Positions 4,195-58,460 of a stretch of 64,000 bases of DNA are shown in pieces (position 1 is the stretch's first letter; each line of letters begins with the position of its first letter). The stretch is from positions 10,222 through 74,221 of the forward strand of contig CAWDNR010000006.1 in NCBI GenBank assembly GCA_963803655.1. The letters run 5' to 3'. Origin of the DNA: Terriglobia bacterium. Lineage in GTDB: Bacteria > Acidobacteriota > Terriglobia > Terriglobales > Acidobacteriaceae. Made by a program: the position numbers and the translations under genes. The notes beneath the pieces were generated by a model that saw only the letters and a program-made list of their open reading frames with translations, was not told the origin of the DNA and searched no databases.

Positions 4195-5556
4195 TTAAAG
4201 TCCCCTAACGCGGTACAGGACGACCCCATGCGATGGAACAACAGCACTGATGGTGCTGCTTGTTTTCTTCGTCTCGCCGGTCCACAGGTCGTGTAAGGAA
4301 TAGCCGCTTTCGTTTTCGGGGAGGCCTACGGTCAATGCTGGAACGGAGACTTCCTCTGCCTTCCCGCCGGTGTTGAACAAACCGACGATCGTGTCTCCGT
4401 TCGGTTCCCTCTTGGCGAACACCTGCTGGTTGCCGGTATTGAGCACTCTTTTCGCGGCGATCGAATCCTGGTCGACAGCAAGGACTTCGGAGTTCTCCAG
4501 GTATTTCTGCAGATCCGTTTGGTCGAGGTGAGTAAGATCGACGCCGAGGATGAAAGGTGCTGCTCCAAGGGCCCAAAGGCTGATCTGAGTCTGGCGCTCG
4601 ACCGGAGTCAGCCCGTCGTTGCTGCCATTTCCTACCTCGATGGAGTCATAGTCATTGAAAGCGCCTGGACCAGCGTAAGGCTGCCACTCCGCCACGTAGT
4701 TGAAGCGTTTGGCAACGTCGGCCCAGCTGGTCAGTGGGTAGCTGATACCGCCCTTTTCGCAGCGATAGCATTCGACGTCGGGCGCGAATTCCCATTGATT
4801 GGCATACTTCATCAAGGTCGGGGCGATAGCGATTGTAAGGTGCCCCTGCGTGACGTCCAAGACCATGGGCCGCCCGCTTTGCCGTATAGCATTCGACCAT
4901 GCCTTAACGTCAGCGGCGTTACTGTCTTTCATGCCGTCAATTTTGATGTAATCGACACCCCACGCCGCGAGCATATCTACCCATGAATTCGTATACTCCT
5001 GCGCGCCAGGCTTGTTGTAGTCAATGCGGACCATGCCCTTGCAGTTGTAGTTGTTCTCCTCTACAGACGGTTCCGCAATCTGGGCAGCCGTGTACGATGT
5101 GCCCTTAATGGGCGTGTTCCGGCTGACTGCCTGCTTCGAAATACCCGGCGTAACATAGATTCCGAACTTCATCCCGAGACTGTGGATGTAGTCAGCGACT
5201 ACCTTGATGCCATCGGTATCTCCCTGGGCCGGGAATCTCGACGAGTCTGTCATCCAGCGGCCATAAGGGTCGACGTTCGGACCTTGCGGTCCCGGACACT
5301 GATACCAAAAGTCGTCGAGGTTTACGTATTGGTAGCCCATTTTTTGCAATCCGAAATCATGCAGGGCGAGCGCCTGAGCTTTCATTTGGGCTGCCGTGGG
5401 ATGTTTGCGGAGGAAGCTCCAGCTACTCCAGCCGAGAACGGGCGTGCGCTCGAGGCCATTATCCTCTGCGCTGGCGTTGTGCAGGATCCCGCCCGCCAAC
5501 AGCGCGACCAGCATTGGTGCTCTCAAGCTGTGTGTCAATTCCCTCAAAAAATTCAT
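4195..5556 (-). CDS. alpha-galactosidase, glycoside hydrolase family 27, secreted
   Basis: 453 aa with a signal peptide. GWSSWSF...YQYVNLDDFWY, YIKIDG and C-terminal beta-sandwich pattern of GH27 melibiase-type enzymes. Confidence 0.8.
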   Translation of the reverse strand: MNFLRELTHSLRAPMLVALLAGGILHNASAEDNGLERTPVLGWSSWSFLRKHPTAAQMKAQALALHDFGLQKMGYQYVNLDDFWYQCPGPQGPNVDPYGRWMTDSSRFPAQGDTDGIKVVADYIHSLGMKFGIYVTPGISKQAVSRNTPIKGTSYTAAQIAEPSVEENNYNCKGMVRIDYNKPGAQEYTNSWVDMLAAWGVDYIKIDGMKDSNAADVKAWSNAIRQSGRPMVLDVTQGHLTIAIAPTLMKYANQWEFAPDVECYRCEKGGISYPLTSWADVAKRFNYVAEWQPYAGPGAFNDYDSIEVGNGSNDGLTPVERQTQISLWALGAAPFILGVDLTHLDQTDLQKYLENSEVLAVDQDSIAAKRVLNTGNQQVFAKREPNGDTIVGLFNTGGKAEEVSVPALTVGLPENESGYSLHDLWTGETKKTSSTISAVVPSHGVVLYRVRGL

Positions 5557-5685: not shown

Positions 5686-6654
5686 GTGCGCCGGGATAAA
5701 CCGGCATGAAGCAGAGGATGAAAGTTCCTTACGAGAAAGGAGTAGGGAGCAGTCGACAAGGCTGGGAATCTTGCGAGGTGAAAGTCCTCGCGCCGCCAAT
5801 TGCCTGTAGTCGGGCGGCTAGCAAATCCGATGCGTGCGAAGGTAACGACGCACGTTCTGCTCGGACGTAAACGCCTCAGCTGCCCTGCAGGGAAACTTGC
5901 AGCGGTAGGAACGATCTGGGAGGCAAGCAAACTTGGAGGCCTGAACATAACGGAATAGCTGCAGCCTCGAAAATCTCGTCCGTGGAAAATCGTGTTCGCG
6001 GGATGAAGCGGGAAGCCGACCCGAGCTACTCCAGGGGAAGGCCGATGACGCCGAGGAAGAACCAGGCAAGTGCACTCGGTGGGACCGCCGTGGTAGGGGC
6101 TCAGGCATCTGAGGAAGGATTCGCAGAATAACGTCGAGAAGGTCCCGTTGGCAACAGGGGCTGATGGCAACCTGCAGAGACTCCTCTAACGAGGCTACGA
6201 CCGAAGGTGAGGAGAGGTGACGGGATCGGCGCATGAGTCCGTAGGAGCGATGAATGAGGGGTAACGCCCTCAGAAGAGACGGTACACGTCTCTGCGATGG
6301 AGGTAACGCCGACATTGCGCAAAGGGACTCTGGGTCTTGGTGGTTTCGTCGTTCAGCGGGGTGGTCGGACACAGAGCCGACAATGAACCTCACGTGGGAG
6401 ATGGAACTAGGCCTTGAGCAAACCACGGAAGCTGGGGTGGATTGCGAATCAGCGCTTAAACCTCACCAAACTGGGAAGGCTCGAGGAAGACAGACCAAGA
6501 CTCCGAACCGGACCTTGGGAAATCCGGCTGTCCGGGATTATAGGGGGGCCTCCGGAAACGTAGCAACGGTGGAATTGTGAACCCAACTCGCAATCGAAAG
6601 AGCGGGCTTGGTAACCCTCCACCTACAGCTGGCGCGCTGGAGTTCTATCCCAAC
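5686..6654 (+). mobile_element. ORF-less group II intron-like ribozyme, copy B-prime (969 nt)
   Basis: Starts GUGCG and ends AC. Colinear similarity by eye to 8101..8984. Shared motif CGTAGGAGCGATGAA at 6240..6254. Domain V-like hairpin 6505..6539. Long domain VI helix (6543..6555 with 6637..6651) with bulged A6647 seven nt from the 3' end. No ORF. Confidence 0.6.
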
Positions 6655-6867
6655 CGATCCGCTCGGCCTCGAGTCTTGCGCGGTTACCGCGAGGGACACA
6701 GCGAAGCGTAGATAGAGGATAGGTGGGGTGGGTATTCAGCTCCGAAAAGATGCCATCCGGACGCCGACGCCCTTGTAATGCGCGGAAGGCAACATGAACA
6801 GGCGCGATAGCGCGAGCTCCTGTTCAGTCCGGCGTAGTCGAAGACCCCAGACACGCCGAGAAACTTC

Positions 6868-8050
6868 ATGCACGAGAACCGGGAGACCTCGGAGACACCG
6901 GCGGCTCAACCAGGCCGCAGGTCGGCGGGCGAAGGCCAGTGCCACAAGGCCCGCGCGTACGTCTGCGAGGAGTCACACAGCGGCATAGTGCCTATGAACC
7001 ATTCGAACCAAGATGGAACATCGCCGGCGGAGAGTGGGGAGGGAAGGCCGCTGATCAAGGAGAACGCTGGTCAACCTAACACGTACTCGACACAGAGCGG
7101 GAAGGGCGTGTCACAAGGGCTGGCGGGCGTGCGGAAAGCAGCAGGGGAAAATAAGGAGATGAAGTTCACCGCCTTGCTCCACCATCTGACCGTCGATCTG
7201 CTGCGGGAAAGCTTTTACTCCCTGAAGAGGAAGGCCGCACCCGGAGTGGACGGTGTCACCTGGCAGGAGTATGAAGACGGGCTAGAGGATCGATTGACCG
7301 ATCTTCATGGCCGAGTTCATCGCGGAGCCTATCGAGCGACGCCATCGAGAAGAGTGTACATAGAGAAAGCAGACGGACGGCAACGTCCACTAGCGGTCCC
7401 GGCTATCGAAGACAAACTTGTCCAACAGGCCGTGGTTACCATCCTCAACCAGATCTACGAGGAAGACTTTCTCGGCTTTTCCTATGGATTTCGCCCGGGG
7501 CGCAGCCAGCATCAAGCGCTGGACGCGTTGTCGTACGCGCTCCTGAAGAAGAAGGTGAACTACGTTCTGGACGCCGACATCCGAGGATTTTTCGATAACC
7601 TCGACAAGAGTTGGCTGGTCCAGTTCGTGGAGCATCGCGTCGCGGACCCCCGCATCCTACGGCTGATCCAGAAATGGCTCAACGCTGGGGTGATGGAGGA
7701 AGGCGAATGGTCGAATACGAAGACAGGTAGTCCGCAAGGTTCGGTGATTTCACCGCTTCTCGCGAATATCTACTTGCACTACGCTTTCGATCTCTGGGTG
7801 AACGTGTGGCGCAAGAAATGGGCACACGGCGAGGTGGCTGTCATCCGCTATGCGGATGATGTCATCTTGGGATTTCAGCACCAGACGGACGCAGATCGTT
7901 TCTTGGAGAACTTACGGGAGCGGCTGGGGATGTTTGGACTGGAACTGCACCCAGATAAGACGCGCCGGATCGAGTTCGGTAGATTTGCGGAACAGAACCG
8001 GAAACGCAGAGGAGAAGGGAAACCCGACACGTTCGATTTCCTCGGCTTCA
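6868..8050 (+). CDS. group II intron reverse transcriptase/maturase RT-A, 5' segment (interrupted by intron C)
   Basis: ALLHHLTVDLLRESFYSLKRKAAPGVDGVTW, RPLAVPAIEDKLVQQA, FSYGFRPGRSQHQALD, SPLLANIYLH and YADDVILGF RT motifs. RT-like sequence ends at FDFLGF (8050). Frame closed upstream by TAG at 6835..6837. An alternative start is at 6994. Confidence 0.75.
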
Positions 8051-8100
8051 GTGTGCTGCAGGAGCACACGGATAAGGAGTTCATCATGAACTAATCAACC

Positions 8101-8984
8101 GTGTGAATAAGCTGCGCGATAGATGAGGGTAGGCCCCTGGAGCAGCCGACAAGACCGCAAATCTGGAAAGGTGAAAGTCCTTTCTCCGTCAATTGCCTGT
8201 ATCAGACGGATAGTATATCCGGTGCGTGCAGAGGCAACGAAGCACGTTCTGCCCGGAAGTAAAAGTCTCGGCCGCCCTGCGAAATTTGCAGCGGTGGGAG
8301 CGATCTGGGAGACAAGCAAACTCGGAGGCTTGAACGTAAGAACTGTCCGATGACAACCACGAAACCTCACCGCGGAAAAATCGTGTTCGCGGATGAAACG
8401 GGAAGCCGACCTGAGAGGGGTCTAGGGAAGGCCGATGACACCGAGGAAGAAACAGGCAAGTGCACTCGGTGGGACCGTCGGGGTTGAGGGCCAGGCATCT
8501 GAGGAAAGAATTGCGGAGATAACGTCGGGAAGAACCGTTTCCCAGCAGGGGGCTCGCAGCAACCTGCAAGGACCGCCGGAATAAGTGTGGATACATGAAT
8601 CCGGAGGAGGGAGCTGGTTTGGCGCATGAGCTCGTATGAGCGATGAAGAGGGGGTAACGCCCTTCGAGGTGGTGTTGAACGCCACCCTGGCACGAGTAAT
8701 GCTAGTGCCAGGCAAAGGAGCTCTGGGCACTTGGCAGTCCTAGCATGGTCAACGACGTAAGTCGGAGGAGCCATGATTTAAAGACGAGTCGAGAGGTAAA
8801 CCGGACTGGGTTGGGGCGTATGCGAGCGAGCGCTTGAGTTTCACCCGTCTCGGAAAGGTCTCTCGGGGAAAGGCCAAGGTCAAAACCGGAATCGGGAAAT
8901 CCGACCTTCCGGGATTGCAGGGGGGCCCGAGGAAACGTGACTTTGTCTTATGACAAGGTGCGCGCGCCTCGGCTCTATCCCGAC
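8101..8984 (+). mobile_element. ORF-less group II intron-like ribozyme, copy B (884 nt), nested 50 nt into intron C
   Basis: 5' GUGUG, 3' AC. GGUUGA (8482..8487) is the exact complement of the preceding flank UCAACC (8095..8100). Domain V-like hairpin 8882..8916. Domain VI helix (8920..8932 with 8967..8980) has bulged A8977. No ORF. Confidence 0.65.
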
Positions 8985-9425
8985 CGGGATCGGTTTTCAG
9001 GAGCAGATCTCAAACCACTCCAAGCTGCTGTGGTAAAAGGCCGTGGTGGTGAGCGTTGGAGAAAAAGCGCGAGAACAAACTCGTGCAGGTGAGCATCCGA
9101 GAGACGAACGAAAGTGAACCCTTTCGAAGACGCGTCGTTAAGAAATCAAGGGTCGTCGAAACCAGGAGCGTGAAGCCCACCTGGGACAAGTCCGCGGGGT
9201 GCCTGATGACTGTGCGGACGGCGACCGGCGTAGAGGGGGCGTGAAGCGGATGCAGGCTGTTGCGCGGAACTGCAGGAACCAGTCGCTCTGATGTCAAGGG
9301 AGAAGCACAAGCGGCGAAAACCGCGAGGCGAGCGTACCAATGCGGAGCACTGGGGCGGACCGATTCGTAGGAGCGATGAAGGCTCGTAATGGAGCTGGAG
9401 CAAAGGGATCGGGTCAGGTGGTCGC

Positions 9426-10712
9426 ATGACCGAAGCAACTGGTAACAGGAGGACCTCGATGCGTGCGACAGACAAGCCGTTCAACATCGACAAGAAACGA
9501 GTGTACGAAGCGTACAAAGCGGTCAAATCCAATGGCGGAGCGGCCGGCGTGGACGGTCAGACGATCGAGCAGTGCGAAGCCGACTTGAAGAGCAATCTCT
9601 ACAAGATCTGGAACAGAATGAGCTCGGGAACCTACTTTCCTCCGCCGGTGCGAGCCGTTTCCATTCCTAAAAAGACTGGAGGTCAGCGGATTTTGGGTGT
9701 GCCCACGGTAGCGGATCGCGTGGCACAGATGGTGGTCAAGCAAGTCATTGAGCCGAATCTAGACTCCGTATTTCTGACAGATTCCTATGGCTACAGACCG
9801 AGAAAATCGGCACTCGACGCCGTGGGTGTCACGCGAGAGCGGTGTTGGAAGTACGATTGGGTACTAGAGTTTGACATCAAGGGCCGGTTCGACAACATCG
9901 ACCACGAACTTCTGCTACGGGCCATTCGGAGACATGGGACGTGCAAATGGGCGCTGCTGTACATCGAAAGATGGCTGAAAGCACCGACGGTGCAGGAAGA
10001 TGGAACCAGAATTGAGCGAAACCGTGGTACGCCCCAAGGGGGTGTGGTTAGCCCAATTTTGTCGAACACTTTCCTCCACTATGCGTTCGATCTCTGGATG
10101 GCACGGACTCACCCAGATCTCCCGTGGTGTCGGTATGCCGACGATGGGTGGGTTCACTGCCGGAGCGAGCAAGAAGCACAAGCTCTCAAGGCCGAACTTC
10201 AAGCCCGCTTCGCGGAGTGCCGTCTGGAGCTGCATCCGACAAAAACCAAGATCGTTTACTGCAAAGACGGGAAGCGGAAAGGCAAGTACCCGAACGTCAA
10301 ATTTGACTTTCTCGGGTATTGCTTCCGACCCCGTCTGGTTAGACGTTTCCGGGATAATACGCTGTTCTGCGGATTCAATCCCGCGGTCAGCACCACGGCG
10401 ATGAAAGCCATGCGGTCGGCGATACGGGAACTGAATCTTCGCCATCAAACTCAGTTGTCTTTGGACGACATTGCCCGGCAGCTCAACCCACTCCTTCGGG
10501 GTTGGATCGAGTACTACGGGCGATACGCCCCATCGGCACTGTACCCCTTGCTACGGTACGTCAATCAGACGTTATTGGCCTGGGTGATGCGAAAGTTCAA
10601 ACGCTTTAGAGGCCACACGATCCGAGCGGGCCATTTTCTCCAACGGCTTGCCGCGGAGCGAGCGGCTCTCTTCGTTCACTGGAATCTCGGTATGACCGGC
10701 ACGTTTGCCTGA
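9426..10712 (+). CDS. group II intron reverse transcriptase/maturase (RT-C), apparently intact, no endonuclease domain
   Basis: 428 aa. GGAAGVDGQTIEQ, NLYKIWNRMSSGTYFPPPVRAVSIPKKTGGQRILGVPTVADRVAQ, YGYRPRKSALDA, QGGVVSPILSN, YADDGWV, FDFLGY and maturase-like LLRGWIEYYG. Confidence 0.85.
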   Translation: MTEATGNRRTSMRATDKPFNIDKKRVYEAYKAVKSNGGAAGVDGQTIEQCEADLKSNLYKIWNRMSSGTYFPPPVRAVSIPKKTGGQRILGVPTVADRVAQMVVKQVIEPNLDSVFLTDSYGYRPRKSALDAVGVTRERCWKYDWVLEFDIKGRFDNIDHELLLRAIRRHGTCKWALLYIERWLKAPTVQEDGTRIERNRGTPQGGVVSPILSNTFLHYAFDLWMARTHPDLPWCRYADDGWVHCRSEQEAQALKAELQARFAECRLELHPTKTKIVYCKDGKRKGKYPNVKFDFLGYCFRPRLVRRFRDNTLFCGFNPAVSTTAMKAMRSAIRELNLRHQTQLSLDDIARQLNPLLRGWIEYYGRYAPSALYPLLRYVNQTLLAWVMRKFKRFRGHTIRAGHFLQRLAAERAALFVHWNLGMTGTFA

Positions 10713-10715
10713 TGG

Positions 10716-10789
10716 GAGCCGGATGAGCCGAGAGGTTCACGTCCGGTTCTGCGAGAGCCTCGGGGTGAAACTCCCCGGGGCTACTCAAC
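10716..10789 (+). ncRNA. domains V and VI of intron C
   Basis: 10716..10749 GAGCCGGAUGAGCCGAGAGGUUCACGUCCGGUUC: AGC triad, GAGA tetraloop, AC bulge. Domain VI is GAGAGCCUCGGGG...CCCCGGGGCU-A-CUC with bulged A10783 followed by CUCAAC. Confidence 0.75.
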
Positions 10790-11169
10790 CGCACATCAGC
10801 GGGAAGAACAGGTTAGGGCGGTTCGCAGTGAGGCGCAAGACGATCCGCAAACGCATGGGGGCGAAGCTGCGGGAGATTAAGCAGCAGCTCCGTGAGCGAA
10901 TGCATGATCCCGTGCGCCAAACCGGACAATGGCTCAAATCGGTCGTGCAAGGCCACTTCAACTACTATGCGGTGCCGGGGAACCTCGACAGTCTCGGCAT
11001 ATTCCGGGAGCGGCTAATCGGGCAGTGGTGGCGGACACTTCGCCGCCGCAGCCAGAAACGCCCGCTCTCCTGGGAGCGTACTCTTGCCTTGGCTAACCGA
11101 TGGCTCCCTCAACCGCGCGTGCTCCATCCATATCCTGCCGTTCGCTTTGCCGCCAGTCATCCGAGATAA
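10790..11169 (+). CDS. group II intron RT/maturase RT-A, 3' segment (thumb/maturase part)
   Basis: HISGKNRLGRFAVRRKTIRKRMGAKLREIK...GHFNYYAVPGN...VLHPYPAVRFAASHPR. Joins the codon begun at 8050 (a + cg = ACG Thr). Confidence 0.75.
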
Positions 11170-11243
11170 GAACCGGATGCGCTAATCAGCGCCCGTCCGG
11201 GTCCGCGCGGGGGGCAGTCAGCGATGACTGTCCCTACCGCGAT
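11170..11243 (+). ncRNA. domains V and VI at the 3' end of the RT-A intron
   Basis: 11170..11203 GAACCGGAUGCGCUAAUCAGCGCCCGUCCGGGUC (34 nt, two-nt CC bulge). Domain VI is GGGGCAGUCA-GCGA-UGACUGUCCC with bulged A11236 followed by CCGCGAU. Confidence 0.6.
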
Positions 11244-11418
11244 CTCATCACCGAGTTCGCCCGGAACCCCAACGAACTCCGCACATTCCGAAACAATGAA
11301 GTTAAGCATCTAGAGCAGGCCGGGCATGCCCCGGCTCCCCAACCGAGGCGCTAAGGCGTCCGCGGTGGTACGGCCTAAGCAGGCTGGATGCGGCGATAAG
11401 TCGCAAAAGGAATTCCAA

Positions 11419-11694
11419 ATGTCAGACGAGCGTGAGCTTAAACGTGTACCTCGCTGCCTACTACCAGTGAACAACCTCAACCTTGAACCCGAGTACTTCG
11501 GCGAACGGCTAGGCCGCGGCTACGTCCGTGTGCCCTACAAGGCGTGCGGAGTCGAATATGACCGACGCGAGATTGAGGAGTACTCTCATCCGTTCGCGCA
11601 CCACGTTTCCAACTTTATGTGTCCCAAGGGGCACCTTGGCGAAACGCGGCGGCTCTGGGAGCCGGTCAAGGCTGCCGAGAAAGTGGATCTGTAA
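11419..11694 (+). CDS. hypothetical small protein
   Basis: Internal ATG of the 11326..11694 ORF (MSDERELKRVPRC...). No family recognised. Confidence 0.35.
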   Translation: MSDERELKRVPRCLLPVNNLNLEPEYFGERLGRGYVRVPYKACGVEYDRREIEEYSHPFAHHVSNFMCPKGHLGETRRLWEPVKAAEKVDL

Positions 11695-14087: not shown

Positions 14088-14164
14088 CGGGGAGTGGCTC
14101 AGCCTGGTAGAGCACCTGGTTCGGGACCAGGGGGTCGGAGGTTCGAATCCTCTCTCCCCGACCA
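14088..14164 (+). tRNA. tRNA-Pro (anticodon CGG), CCA encoded
   Basis: Hand-folded cloverleaf: acceptor CGGGGAG/CTCCCCG, D arm GCTC..GAGC, anticodon stem CCTGG/CCAGG with loop TTCGGGA, T arm GGAGG-TTCGAAT-CCTCT, discriminator A plus CCA. Confidence 0.9.
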
Positions 14165-58200: not shown

Positions 58201-58359
58201 TCTCACTCATCGGTTCGCTGGGCGCATCTATAATGTGAATGTGAATTGAGTTTCCGACCGCCTCAGCCTTCGGGCATACCCTGGCTGTGGCGGCGAGGGC
58301 TGGTTTCTCTTTGCGTCCCTTGCGCCAAGGATTCCGCAAGGTTCGCAAAAAAAAACCAA

Positions 58360-58460
58360 CCCTGAGGGTACAGATGGAAATGCCTGTGCCTCCCGGCTTC
58401 GCGAGAAGCCATTGGAAAGGAAACAGCCGCCGGGATTTTCCCGCCCGCCTGTCCCTTTCT
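58360..58460 (+). promoter_or_regulatory. candidate molybdenum cofactor (Moco) riboswitch
   Basis: About 100 nt upstream of moaA. GCCUCCCGGC..., AUUGGAAAGG and GCCGCCGGG resemble the conserved Moco-motif blocks as I recall them. An outer helix GGGUACAG / CUGUCCC closes the element. Confidence 0.45.

What the first reader, a model, noticed from the sequence alone, without database searches (positions are those of the whole stretch)
8101..8984. ORF-less group II ribozyme B, apparently retrohomed into the first 50 nt of intron C
B begins GUGUG and ends AC. It has a domain V-like hairpin (8882..8916). A long domain VI helix (8920..8932 pairing with 8967..8980) carries bulged A8977 seven nt from the 3' end. 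There is no ORF between the shared motif CGTATGAGCGATGAAG (8633..8648) and domain V. GGUUGA at 8482..8487 is the perfect complement of the six nt immediately upstream of the insertion (UCAACC, 8095..8100), as expected for EBS1-IBS1. An ORF-less intron must borrow a maturase/RT in trans. Its domain V resembles the one following RT-A, not the one of its host C, so the likely helper is an RT-A-type protein. The local copy of that gene is disrupted by the very intron that B sits in.
Basis: partly seen in the sequence, partly recalled or inferred. Interest (0 to 1): 0.7.

Follow-up and report, generated by a model that had tools for sequence, protein, structure and literature searches.

The report
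ORF-less intron nested inside another intron
The flagged stretch is a real protein-less group II-type intron sitting inside a second intron, which itself splits the reverse-transcriptase gene of a third; it starts 38 bases later than reported and belongs to a family of soil-bacterial elements with unusual ends and catalytic hairpin.

Summary
The idea holds, but several details do not. An ORF-less group II-type ribozyme is inserted in intron C. The insertion is 8139..8984 (846 nt), not 8101..8984. Thirteen B-free copies of intron C read ...GAUGAGGGUAGGCCCCU|CGGGAUCGG..., so 8101-8138, including the "GUGUG", is C's own sequence. The element starts GGAGCAG and ends CUAUCCCGAC.

I recovered 60 further copies from Acidobacteriota MAGs and soil metagenomes. 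All 42 whose 5' end lies on the contig start at that GGAGC (one lacks the first G), with many different flanks.

The true EBS1 is 8416-8422 (AGGGGUC). It pairs with the 7 nt before the junction (GGCCCCU, 8132-8138) and covaries with the flank across subfamilies.

An alignment of 27 distinct copies supports a six-domain fold: 97.9% of cells paired and 69 pairs with compensatory changes. Domain V with a 2-nt bulge and domain VI with branch A8977 are confirmed. The triad is AAC, not AGC, and Rfam's domain V model misses it.

B' (5746..6654) is a second, diverged copy in intron A (5686..~11243).

Nested and ORF-less introns are known. The non-canonical termini and core, and the habit of landing in other introns, are the new parts. 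Splicing and the helper RT remain inferred.

The parts
8139..8984 (+). Element B: ORF-less group II-type intron, 846 nt, 5' GGAGCAGCCGACAAG ... CUAUCCCGAC 3'
   Evidence: Empty versus filled site in intron C. The same 5' and 3' ends occur in 38 complete copies with different flanks. It keeps 201 of 204 consensus base pairs.
8101..8138 (+). Part of intron C wrongly assigned to B. It contains a second GUGUG and hairpin 1 of Rfam D1D4-2 (GAGGGUAGGCCCCU).
   Evidence: Present at 92-95% identity in B-free C copies L004-L013. The alignment is A2. D1D4-2 scores 118.8 bits in uninterrupted C against 92.4 bits here.
8132..8138 (+). IBS1 for B (GGCCCCU), the last 7 nt of C before the insertion
   Evidence: Pairs 7/7 (one G-U) with 8416-8422. 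Flank and loop covary across subfamilies.
8416..8422 (+). EBS1 of B (AGGGGUC), in a domain I loop between AAGCCGAC and GGAAGGCCGAUGAC
   Evidence: 13 of 18 distinct flank/loop combinations pair 7/7, and 16 of 18 pair at least 6/7. Other registers average 2.3-4.8.
8146..8528 (+). Domain I of B; includes a sub-threshold Rfam D1D4-4 match at 8165-8339
   Evidence: Closing helix at columns 8-12/394-398 and inner helices with compensatory changes. Rfam gives 42.0 bits against a gathering score of 49. Relatives L020 and L067 reach 50.2.
8529..8723 (+). Domains II (8529-8623) and III (8628-8723) of B; domain III carries the shared motif CGUAUGAGCGAUGAAG
   Evidence: Helices 18-25 contain 26 pairs with compensatory changes.
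8737..8865 (+). Domain IV of B, short, with no ORF
8883..8915 (+). Domain V of B: lower helix, 2-nt bulge (8905-8906), upper helix, GAAAU loop; triad position reads AAC
   Evidence: helix 32: three pairs with compensatory changes. No RF00029 match at E<=5. Alignment.
8920..8984 (+). Domain VI of B (helix 8920-8980) with bulged A8977, plus the last 4 nt of the element to its 3' end (AC)
   Evidence: The outer helix is invariant in 27 of 27 copies. The inner helix changes CCGAGG/CCUCGG to CUCGGG/CCCGAG to CUCCGG/CUGGAG between subfamilies.
8482..8487 (+).
8051..10789 (+). Intron C, the host of B. It is 1893 nt without B, has a canonical domain V/VI at 10714-10789, and lies in the FLGF codons of RT-A.
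   Evidence: Rfam D1D4-2 and Intron_gpII matches. Exon join. Homologues sit at the same site in other RT genes.
9459..10712 (+). RT-C ORF (417 aa; RVT_1 + GIIM), intact
5686..11243 (+). Intron A, the outermost intron. It is about 1910 nt without B' and C. 5' GUGCG; 3' end at 11243 or 11244; intergenic.
   Evidence: The 5' end is confirmed by a different upstream flank in L028. The 3' end is set by divergence from L004. Rfam D1D4-6 match.
5746..6654 (+). Element B': a second, diverged B-type element (909 nt; 68% identical to B over the aligned columns of A3, 76% in the best local match), inserted 60 nt into intron A
   Evidence: An A-type copy in L028 reads straight across the site. B' has the same GGAGCAG start and CUAUCCCAAC end. 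EBS1 6026-6032 (CUACUCC) pairs 7/7 with 5739-5745 (GGAGUAG).
6868..8050 (+). RT-A ORF, exon 1. The true start may be the ATG at 7162.
10790..11169 (+). RT-A ORF, exon 2 (maturase/X domain)
11170..11243 (+). Domains V and VI of intron A. Domain V is GAACCGGAUGCGC...GUCCGGGUC, also with an AAC triad.
   Evidence: the same domain V occurs in L004, L006 and L041, and domain VI covaries between the window and L004.

Best explanation
8139..8984 is a non-autonomous (ORF-less) group II-type retroelement. It inserted by RNA-guided reverse splicing into domain I of the RT-encoding intron C.

Proposed mechanism:
1. The RNA folds into the six-domain group II architecture.
2. A 7-nt loop in domain I (EBS1, 8416-8422) pairs with the 7 nt that precede it (IBS1, 8132-8138) and so defines the 5' junction.
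3. Domain VI presents A8977 as the branch point, 7 nt from the 3' end.
4. Excision of B would rejoin ...GGCCCCU|CGGGAUC..., rebuilding the two 5' hairpins of C's domain I. C could then fold and splice.
5. Splicing of C rejoins the RT-A reading frame. B' would play the same role in intron A.
6. Because B encodes no protein, reverse transcription after insertion, and probably efficient splicing, must use an RT/maturase made elsewhere.

What is shown: the insertion boundaries, the family-wide conserved and covarying structure, the EBS1-IBS1 covariation, and many independent insertion sites, including a 5'-truncated copy.

What is inferred: present-day splicing, the order of splicing, and the identity of the helper RT.

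The family differs from textbook group II introns in two respects. Its 5' end is GGAGC rather than GUGYG. The catalytic-triad position of domain V reads AAC rather than AGC.
For: Boundaries:
- B-free copies of C read across the site.
- A B'-free A-type copy reads across the B' site.

Family:
- A conserved 20-mer found 3 loci in Acidobacteriota MAGs and 57 metagenome loci.
- 38 copies are complete, 27 of them distinct, 816-919 nt long.
- Every copy whose 5' end is on the contig starts GGAGC(A/G)G; all complete copies end CUAUCCC(A/G)AC. The flanks differ.
- L003 is a 5'-truncated copy with the same 3' end.

Target recognition:
- The EBS1 loop changes with the flank: GGCCCCU/AGGGGUC, GRCCCUU/AAGGGUC, GGUCCUU/AAGGAUC, GGCACUC/GAGUGUC, GGAGUAG/CUACUCC.
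- 13 of 18 distinct combinations pair 7/7. Shifted registers are far lower.

Structure:
- RNAalifold predicts 215 pairs, 70 of them covarying.
- On a curated structure, 97.9% of cells pair and 69 pairs have compensatory changes. Controls with the partner slid by 1-3 columns give 36-46% paired and 12-20 such pairs. No shuffle out of 500 reaches the observed value.
- The window copy keeps 201 of 204 pairs.
- Domain V and domain VI helices covary.
- The single-sequence fold has z = -3.75.

Group II affinity:
- Rfam D1D4-4 scores 42.0 bits here and 50.2 bits (above the gathering score) in L020 and L067.

No protein:
-.

RT genes nearby:
- RT-C is intact. RT-A is intact once C is removed.
Against: - Two features that define group II introns are not met: the 5' end is GGAGC and the triad is AAC.
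- Rfam's domain V/VI model gives no match at E<=5.
- No splicing, lariat or mobility data exist.
- In a single sequence the 7-nt complementarity is not significant. The case rests on covariation.
- Family members were collected with one conserved 20-mer from similar soil metagenomes, so they are a biased and related sample.
- The structure tested was derived from the same alignment, although the slid controls argue against circularity.
- The helper RT is unidentified.
Confidence: 0.85

Rival explanations
1. One reading: B is 8101..8984, a canonical GUGUG...AC intron. It would have retrohomed after UCAACC, 50 nt into intron C, using EBS1 = GGUUGA (8482-8487).
For: GUGUG at 8101 and the perfect hexamer complement are really in the sequence.
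Against: - 8101-8138 is part of every B-free copy of C.
- It forms hairpin 1 of Rfam D1D4-2.
- No other B copy has GUGYG at that distance.
- The GGUUGA loop does not follow the flanks.
- The hexamer match is expected in 22% of shuffles.
Confidence: 0.02
2. B is not an intron but an optional expansion segment of intron C's domain I, inherited together with C.
For: B-type sequence is found at the same hairpin in several C-like hosts (L062, L037, L039, L023).
Against: - Copies 90-94% identical to B occur in unrelated hosts and in sequence with no recognised intron.
- They are also found in tandem after another B-type element (L046/L067).
- They are found in a different intron class (B' in A).
- C without B is common (13 loci).
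- B has its own domains I-VI, and its EBS1 matches each flank.
Confidence: 0.02
3. B and B' are real former introns but are now dead. They no longer splice, so introns C and A in this locus are permanently disabled relics in an intergenic intron graveyard.
For: - The nest is intergenic, so nothing selects for its splicing.
- B' keeps only 189 of 202 consensus pairs.
- The core is non-canonical (AAC, GGAGC).
- Many related loci show truncations, deletions and further interruptions (L003, L031, L041).
Against: - B keeps 201 of 204 pairs, an intact EBS1-IBS1 and an intact branch site.
- The RT-C ORF is intact and 96% identical to a protein found on 9 contigs.
- RT-A is open once C is removed.
- The AAC domain V is shared by RT-encoding A-type copies in four loci, which argues that it works.
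Confidence: 0.2
4. B acts together with host sequence. A GUGUG of intron C (8051 or 8101) would serve as the 5' splice site and B's domains V/VI as an alternative 3' module. This would be alternative splicing rather than clean excision of B.
For: - B lacks its own GUGYG, while its intron hosts carry one 38-88 nt upstream.
- Shifted 5' splice sites and multiple domain V/VI modules are known (fungal rRNA introns and C.te.I1; review PMC4424553).
Against: - Copies whose 5' flank shows no recognisable host-intron start carry no GUGYG motif in the ~130 nt I read upstream (L022, L052, L053, L059).
- EBS1 pairs with the 7 nt directly at the GGAGC junction in all subfamilies.
- Such splicing would delete part of C's domain I.
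Confidence: 0.04

Closest known systems
Nested group II introns of Methanosarcina acetivorans (Dai and Zimmerly 2003, as summarised in the review PMC4424553)
   Same: Both contain RT-encoding and ORF-less introns. [quoted passage not shown] Here C sits in the FDFLG(F/Y) codons of two RT classes. B sits in domain I of C and of A. In L028 an A-type intron sits in a B-type domain VI.
   Different: This case is bacterial (Acidobacteriota). The ORF-less family has at least 60 copies in the scanned data. It has a non-canonical 5' end and domain V, and its preferred targets are structural RNA parts (a domain I hairpin, domain VI) rather than only ORFs. I could not read the 2003 paper itself.
ORF-less group II introns served by an RT/maturase made elsewhere in the genome: Thermosynechococcus elongatus (PMC2882425) and Trichodesmium (PMC4649490)
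   Same: These are ribozymes that encode no protein and live in genomes that also hold related RT-encoding introns. In Trichodesmium, dependence of ORF-less introns on trans-encoded splicing factors was shown by heterologous expression in E. coli (PMC4649490).
   Different: From my own knowledge, not checked here, the cyanobacterial ORF-less introns are close derivatives of a co-resident RT intron and have canonical GUGYG and AGC. For B, no RT-encoding parent was found. The nearest domain I relative (a D1D4-4-type RT intron in L017 and L071) has canonical ends and core. I saw only the title and abstract of PMC2882425.
Bacterial twintron of Trichodesmium (Pfreundt and Hess 2015, PMC4649490)
   Same: An inner intron interrupts an outer group II intron and has to be removed first. 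Sequential splicing was shown there.
   Different: That twintron interrupts a conserved protein gene and was shown to splice. Here the nest is intergenic, three levels deep, and untested.
Group II introns with altered 5' splice sites (fungal rRNA IIB1 introns; C.te.I1 of Clostridium tetani; review PMC4424553)
   Same: They depart from the GUGYG rule at the 5' junction.
   Different: Those introns keep a GUGYG motif and splice 1-33 nt upstream of it. The B family has no GUGYG at all: GGAGC occupies the position that GUGCG holds in its nearest domain I relatives.
Rfam RF02003 (group-II-D1D4-4)
   Same: The domain I segment around GGUGAAAGUCC matches the model end to end.
   Different: The score is 42.0 bits in the window, below the gathering score of 49. 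Two relatives just reach it at 50.2. A bona fide member scores 85.9 (L017).

Membership tests
Group II intron (ribozyme) | Six-domain secondary structure: a large domain I closed by a basal helix, then domains II, III, IV, V and VI | tested here: met
   Consensus fold of 27 distinct copies: 204 pairs, 97.9% of cells paired, 69 pairs with compensatory changes. Slid controls give 36-46% paired and 12-20 such pairs.
Group II intron (ribozyme) | 5' terminal GUGYG | tested here: not met
   The element starts GGAGC(A/G)G in 41 of the 42 copies whose 5' end is on the contig; L032 lacks the first G. The junction is fixed by empty sites.
Group II intron (ribozyme) | 3' terminal AY | tested here: met
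   Ends ...CCCGAC or ...CCCAAC in all complete copies. Four different 3' flanks were seen at first and many more later.
Group II intron (ribozyme) | Domain V: a hairpin of about 34 nt with a 2-nt bulge on the 3' strand and a GNRA-type loop | tested here: met
   8883-8915. Lower helix, 2-nt bulge, 4-bp upper helix, GAAAU loop. Three pairs have compensatory changes (helix 32).
Group II intron (ribozyme) | Catalytic triad AGC (or CGC) near the base of domain V, with the G-U wobble | tested here: not met
   The triad position reads AAC, opposite G or C and A, in all 27 copies. RF00029 gives no match at E<=5. The RT-encoding intron A shares AAC.
Group II intron (ribozyme) | Domain VI with a bulged adenosine 7-8 nt from the 3' splice site | tested here: met
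   A8977 is 7 nt from 8984. It is invariant in 27 of 27 copies, and the inner helix covaries.
Group II intron (ribozyme) | EBS1 in domain I pairs with IBS1, the last nucleotides of the 5' exon | tested here: met
   8416-8422 pairs with 8132-8138. Five covarying loop/flank types. 13 of 18 combinations pair 7/7.
Group II intron (ribozyme) | Self-splicing or maturase-assisted splicing with lariat formation | not testable with these tools
   Needs RNA data or biochemistry.
Rfam RF02003 group-II-D1D4-4 | Score at or above the gathering threshold (49 bits) | tested here: inconclusive
   42.0 bits (B) and 41.9 bits (B') in the window. 50.2 bits in L020 and L067.
Twintron (intron inside intron) | The inner element is an insertion relative to an otherwise continuous outer intron | tested here: met
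   Thirteen B-free copies of C and one B'-free copy of A. Rfam D1D4-2 regains 26 bits when uninterrupted.
Twintron (intron inside intron) | Sequential splicing, inner intron first | not testable with these tools
   Inferred only. B separates hairpins 1 and 2 of C's domain I.
Non-autonomous (ORF-less) mobile group II intron | No intron-encoded protein | tested here: met
   Domain IV is about 130 nt. No + strand ORF of 40 aa or more lies there, and no ORF in B or B' has a Pfam match.
Non-autonomous (ORF-less) mobile group II intron | Multiple copies at different sites that match the element's own guide sequence | tested here: met
   60 loci beyond the window and 18 distinct flank/EBS1 combinations. 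One 5'-truncated copy.
Non-autonomous (ORF-less) mobile group II intron | A compatible RT/maturase supplied in trans by a related intron in the same genome | tested here: inconclusive
   RT-A (same AAC type of domain V) and RT-C are in the same locus. There is no domain IVa similarity to either. B copies occur in hosts of several RT classes.

The most novel reading that the evidence does not exclude
The B family could be an active, previously overlooked lineage of protein-less group II ribozymes whose catalytic core has changed. The first five nucleotides are GGAGC instead of GUGYG. The domain V triad is AAC, mismatched, instead of AGC with its G-U wobble. On this reading the family lives as a hyperparasite of other group II introns: it homes into their domain I hairpins and domain VI, and so gains a harmless site, co-transcription with an RT gene, and a steady supply of new targets. 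Surveys that look for introns with the Rfam domain V model or by the RT ORF would not see it.
Probability: 0.4. Interest if true: 0.7.

Novelty: new variant of a known kind. Interest (0 to 1): 0.55.

Why it matters
[quoted passage not shown] This family fits that exception. One 20-mer found at least 60 copies, and Rfam's domain V model detects none of them. A large survey (PMC8919778) relied on that same model.

The AAC triad is also carried by an RT-encoding intron class (A-type). If introns with AAC and a GGAGC 5' end really splice, they show how much change the catalytic centre that is thought to be shared between group II introns and the spliceosome can tolerate.

The locus also gives a bacterial counterpart to the Methanosarcina intron nests. 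At least three intron families use each other as landing sites.

For annotation the practical lessons are:
- The boundary of a nested intron cannot be read from a nearby GUGYG.
- Rfam D1-D4 matches that begin at the 3' end of an insertion are misleading.

Tried and rejected
1. A first metagenome pattern (AGGTGAAAGTCCTNNNNNCCGNCAATTGCCTGTA) found nothing because it was too strict. The 20-mer then found 57 loci.

2. I first took B' to be 5686..6655 and looked for intron A's 5' end further upstream. That was wrong. 5686-5745 is A's own 5' end, as L028 shows.

3. I suspected from the Rfam D1D4-6 alignment that B' was an integral part of that family, because the model's first 12 positions align to the 3' end of B'. 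I rejected this. Those positions are unpaired and low in information. The model is matched end to end on contiguous sequence with no B-type insert in L013, and an A-type copy without B' exists.

4. L031 looked like an RT-encoding B-type intron. It is a B copy interrupted at nt 392 by a different intron.

5. I tested the D1D4-4-type RT intron (L017, L071) as the autonomous parent of B. It has GUGCG and an AGC domain V, so it is not a direct parent.

6. A local alignment of B and B' domain IV against the regions around the RT-A and RT-C start and stop codons gave nothing above shuffles. The helper therefore cannot be assigned by sequence.

7. The RNAalifold pairing of the 5' GGAGC with GCUCU in domain VI, and of 598-609 with the domain VI 5' strand, was dropped from the tested structure. 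Those columns are invariant and conflict with the domain VI helix.

8. A literature search for an AAC triad in domain V found nothing relevant in the held library. Dai and Zimmerly 2003 and Simon et al. 2008 are not held.

9. No other B copy exists in the 64-kb window.
Full report
**What is in the window**

Rfam finds three group II intron pieces on the + strand: D1D4-6 at 6639-6847, D1D4-2 at 8971-9090, and a canonical domain V/VI at 10714-10789.

The RT reading frame that starts at 6868 runs to ...DTFDFLGF at 8049-8050. It resumes at 10790 with THISGKNRLGRF... through a maturase domain to 11169. Intron C is therefore 8051..10789, lying in the FLGF codons of RT-A. C carries its own intact 417-aa RT/maturase at 9459-10712, with RVT_1 and GIIM domains.

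The flagged segment and a second segment near 5700-6650 are clearly homologous: 76% identity over 540 nt. No other copy exists in the window.

**Boundary of B**

Close homologues of RT-C (85-96% identity) are abundant. I fetched ten loci that encode them (L004-L013).
- The rest of B is absent from that position.
- The alignment (A2) shows the uninterrupted intron reading ...GAUGAGGGUAGGCCCCU|CGGGAUCGGCUUUCAGGAGCAG....
- Three further loci, L072-L074, were reached through a different RT. Their called genes show the same arrangement, and L072, which I read, shows the same empty site.

The insertion is therefore exactly 8139..8984 (846 nt). It starts GGAGCAGCCGACAAG and ends CUAUCCCGAC, 88 nt into intron C.

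GAGGGUAGGCCCCUC is hairpin 1 of the Rfam D1D4-2 model. That model scores 118.8 bits in uninterrupted copies and 92.4 bits in the window, where the hairpin is cut off.

**B is one member of a family**

A 20-mer that is identical in B and B' found 3 loci in Acidobacteriota MAGs (Sulfotelmatobacter, Acidoferrales and an unnamed one) and 57 metagenome contigs.
- 38 copies are complete, 27 of them distinct, 816-919 nt long.
- In all 42 copies whose 5' end is on the contig, homology begins at GGAGC(A/G)GCCGACAAG (L032 lacks the first G). All complete copies end at CUAUCCC(A/G)AC. The sequence outside differs.
- L003 is a 5'-truncated copy with the normal 3' end.
- L046 and L067 are tandem: a B-type element directly follows the 3' end of another.
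- L031 is a B copy interrupted by yet another intron.

**B' boundary**

L028 contains an A-type intron whose first 700 nt align at 81% identity to window 5686-5745 joined directly to 6655-7296. B' is therefore an insertion at 5746..6654 (909 nt), 60 nt into intron A.

The same locus confirms A's 5' end at 5686 (GUGCG), because the upstream flank there is different. A's 3' end is at 11243 or 11244, where the window and L004 diverge.

The nest is A (5686..~11243) containing B' and C, with C containing B. Without their guests, A is about 1910 nt and C is 1893 nt. Both are normal sizes for bacterial group II introns.

The nest lies in an intergenic region, upstream of a minus-strand ORF that starts at 5556.

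**Target recognition**

In every copy, a 15-nt loop lies between AAGCCGAC and GGAAGGCCGAUGAC. Seven of its nucleotides are complementary to the 7 nt just upstream of the element:

| 5' flank | Loop |
|---|---|
| GGCCCCU | AGGGGUC (B: 8132-8138 with 8416-8422) |
| GRCCCUU | AAGGGUC |
| GGUCCUU | AAGGAUC (L028) |
| GGCACUC | GAGUGUC |
| GGAGUAG | CUACUCC (B': 5739-5745 with 6026-6032) |

- Of 18 distinct flank/loop combinations, 13 pair 7/7 and 16 pair at least 6/7.
- Shifting either partner drops the mean from 6.3 to 2.3-4.8.
- In a single sequence such a match is not significant. The covariation carries the argument.

This is the behaviour of EBS1-IBS1, and it fixes the 5' junction at GGAGC.

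But it lies 38 nt from the junction. It is expected in 22% of shuffles. The loop varies (GGUUGA, GGUAGG, GAUUGG) without any matching change in the flanks.

**Structure**

RNAalifold on the 27 distinct copies predicts 215 pairs, of which 70 show compensatory changes.

I removed two invariant, conflicting helices and added the outer domain VI helix. The resulting 204 pairs were then counted:
- 97.9% of cells are paired, against 36-46% with the partner slid by 1-3 columns.
- 69 pairs have changes on both sides, against 12-20 in the slid controls.
- No shuffle out of 500 reaches the observed values for percent paired, pairs changed on both sides, cells so changed, or covariation score; 7 of 500 do for the count of further pair types.

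The layout in window coordinates is:

| Domain | Coordinates |
|---|---|
| I | 8146-8528 |
| II | 8529-8623 |
| III | 8628-8723 |
| IV | 8737-8865 |
| V | 8883-8915 |
| VI | 8920-8980 |

- Domain V has a lower helix, a 2-nt bulge on the 3' strand, a 4-bp upper helix and a GAAAU loop. Three of its pairs covary.
- The inner helix of domain VI changes coordinately between subfamilies. A8977 is bulged and invariant, 7 nt from the 3' end.
- The window copy keeps 201 of 204 consensus pairs; B' keeps 189 of 202.
- Domain IV is short. No + strand ORF of 40 aa or more lies there, and no ORF in B or B' has a Pfam match.
- The domain I segment matches Rfam D1D4-4 at 42 bits here, below the gathering score of 49. 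It reaches 50.2 bits in two relatives.

**What is unusual**

1. The 5' end is GGAGC. In the nearest domain I relatives, which are D1D4-4-type RT introns in L017 and L071, GUGCG sits at the same distance upstream of the GGUGAAAGUCC-type motif. GGAGC therefore occupies the GUGYG position rather than lying beside a hidden GUGYG.

2. The triad position of domain V reads AAC, opposite G or C and A. The usual arrangement is AGC with a G-U wobble. This holds in all 27 copies. Rfam RF00029 gives no match for B, B' or intron A, even at E<=5.
   - Intron A, which encodes an RT, has the same AAC (GAACCGGAUGCGC...GUCCGGGUC). So do A-type copies in L004, L006 and L041.
   - AAC is therefore a lineage trait, not decay.
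   - The D1D4-4-type RT intron has a canonical AGC domain V. B thus combines a D1D4-4-like domain I with an A-like domain V.

I found no description of an AAC triad in the held literature. That is absence of evidence in a limited library, not proof of novelty.

**Where the family lands**

Most distinct insertion sites lie in other group II introns:
- The hairpin 1/hairpin 2 junction of C-type introns (window, L062, L037, L039, L023).
- The same junction in a second D1D4-2-type family that starts GUGCGCCACGAGC (L017, L040, L048, L058, L068).
- The same junction in an ORF-less mini-intron of about 640 nt that starts GUGUCAAGA (L001, L014, L028, L041).
- Domain I of A-type introns (B').
- A second site in an A-type intron (L023).
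- Sequence that resembles domain VI of D1D4-4-type introns (flank ...UAGUGAGGCACUC|).
- L052, where the copy lies about 130 nt downstream of a D1D4-3 match.

A few sites show no recognisable intron (L018, L022, L053).

The traffic runs in other directions too. C-type introns sit in the FDFLG(F/Y) codons of two RT classes. In L028 an A-type intron sits inside a B-type domain VI.

**Mechanism**

Shown:
- Precise insertion.
- Guide-target covariation.
- A conserved six-domain fold.
- Many independent insertions and a 5'-truncated copy.

Together these fit insertion by reverse splicing followed by reverse transcription.

Inferred:
- B and B' still splice.
- They must be removed before C and A can fold, because B separates hairpins 1 and 2 of C's domain I.
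- C must then be removed to restore the RT-A reading frame.
- An RT/maturase acts on B in trans.

Which RT does this is open. The link to RT-A is the shared AAC signature in domain V. Against a specific link:
- Domain IV of B shows no similarity to the region around either RT start.
- B copies that are 90% identical live in hosts of different RT classes.

**Comparison with known cases**

- ORF-less bacterial group II introns and bacterial twintrons are known but described as rare (PMC4424553; PMC4649490).
- The closest precedent is the Methanosarcina acetivorans nest. It holds up to five introns, includes ORF-less ones, and shows repeated homing into other introns.
- Shifted 5' splice sites are known, but in introns that keep GUGYG.
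- Genome surveys that detect introns with RF00029 or by the RT ORF (PMC8919778) would miss this family.

**Verdict**

The finding is real and its core reading is right: an ORF-less group II-type ribozyme retrohomed into intron C. Three details are wrong: the 5' boundary, the "GUGUG" start and the EBS1-IBS1 pair.

It is a new variant of a known kind, a non-autonomous, intron-targeting group II family with a non-canonical 5' end and domain V. Interest is moderate. It would rise if splicing with an AAC/GGAGC core were demonstrated.

Noticed in passing
window 11301-11420: A sub-threshold SAM-I/IV riboswitch match (38.4 bits against a gathering score of 41.1; E = 0.0012). It lies just downstream of intron A's 3' end and ahead of a small ORF (ATG near 11431, ending 11694) that has no Pfam match.
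   Followed up: no
window 58240-58438 and 14088-14161: A Moco/tungsten riboswitch aptamer (49.7 bits, above the gathering score) and a tRNA gene (65.6 bits). Neither is related to the intron nest.
   Followed up: no
window 8051-8100 and 8101-8105: Intron C carries two GUGUG motifs, at +1 and +51. The first 19 nt can form a perfect 7-bp hairpin (GUGUGCU/AGCACAC). All B-free copies keep both motifs. The role of the 50-nt leader is unclear.
   Followed up: partly
L028 (reverse complement), positions 1266-2200 and 2200-2901: An A-type RT intron (GUGCGCCGGGAUAAACC...) is inserted inside domain VI of a B-type element, after GGUAACCCU. That element sits in an ORF-less mini-intron, which in turn sits in domain VI of a C-type intron. 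This makes four nesting levels.
   Followed up: partly
L014 134-1768; also L001, L041, L060: A second ORF-less family: a D1D4-2-type mini-intron of about 640 nt that starts GUGUCAAGA and has a canonical domain V/VI (Rfam RF00029, 51 bits). It is repeatedly found inside domain VI of C-like introns and itself hosts B-type elements.
   Followed up: partly
L003 3425-3625 and 4481-4670: A 5'-truncated B'-like copy is flanked by direct repeats of about 190 bp of the surrounding sequence. This could be recombination, template switching or an assembly artefact.
   Followed up: no
L004, L005, L013, L072 (flanks of C-type introns): C-type introns are consistently inserted right after the FDFLG(F/Y) codons (RT motif 7) of other introns' RT genes, in at least two RT classes (A-type and D1D4-4-type). 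They appear to use a conserved protein-coding motif as a homing site.
   Followed up: partly
Proteins P0121-P0240; L017 1060-1070: All but 2 of the 120 listed homologues of the D1D4-4-type RT are annotated as 194-330 aa fragments with RVT_1 but no maturase domain. In L017 the gene is cut right after YADD by a GUGCGCCACGAGC-type intron. In L071 it is split by a frameshift.
   Followed up: partly
L023 (reverse complement) 1-895: A further B'-type element with a variant of the search 20-mer (one mismatch). It is inserted at a different site of an A-type intron, equivalent to about window 7055. Copies that differ in the 20-mer were missed by the scan, so the family is larger than counted.
   Followed up: no
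L005 2149-2273: A fragment of about 125 nt from the 5' part of a B-type element lies on the opposite strand just downstream of a C-type intron.
   Followed up: no
Alignment A3, columns 400-900: Subfamilies look mosaic. For example, L036, L048 and L068 are B-like in the first ~400 columns and B'-like afterwards. This suggests recombination between family members.
   Followed up: no
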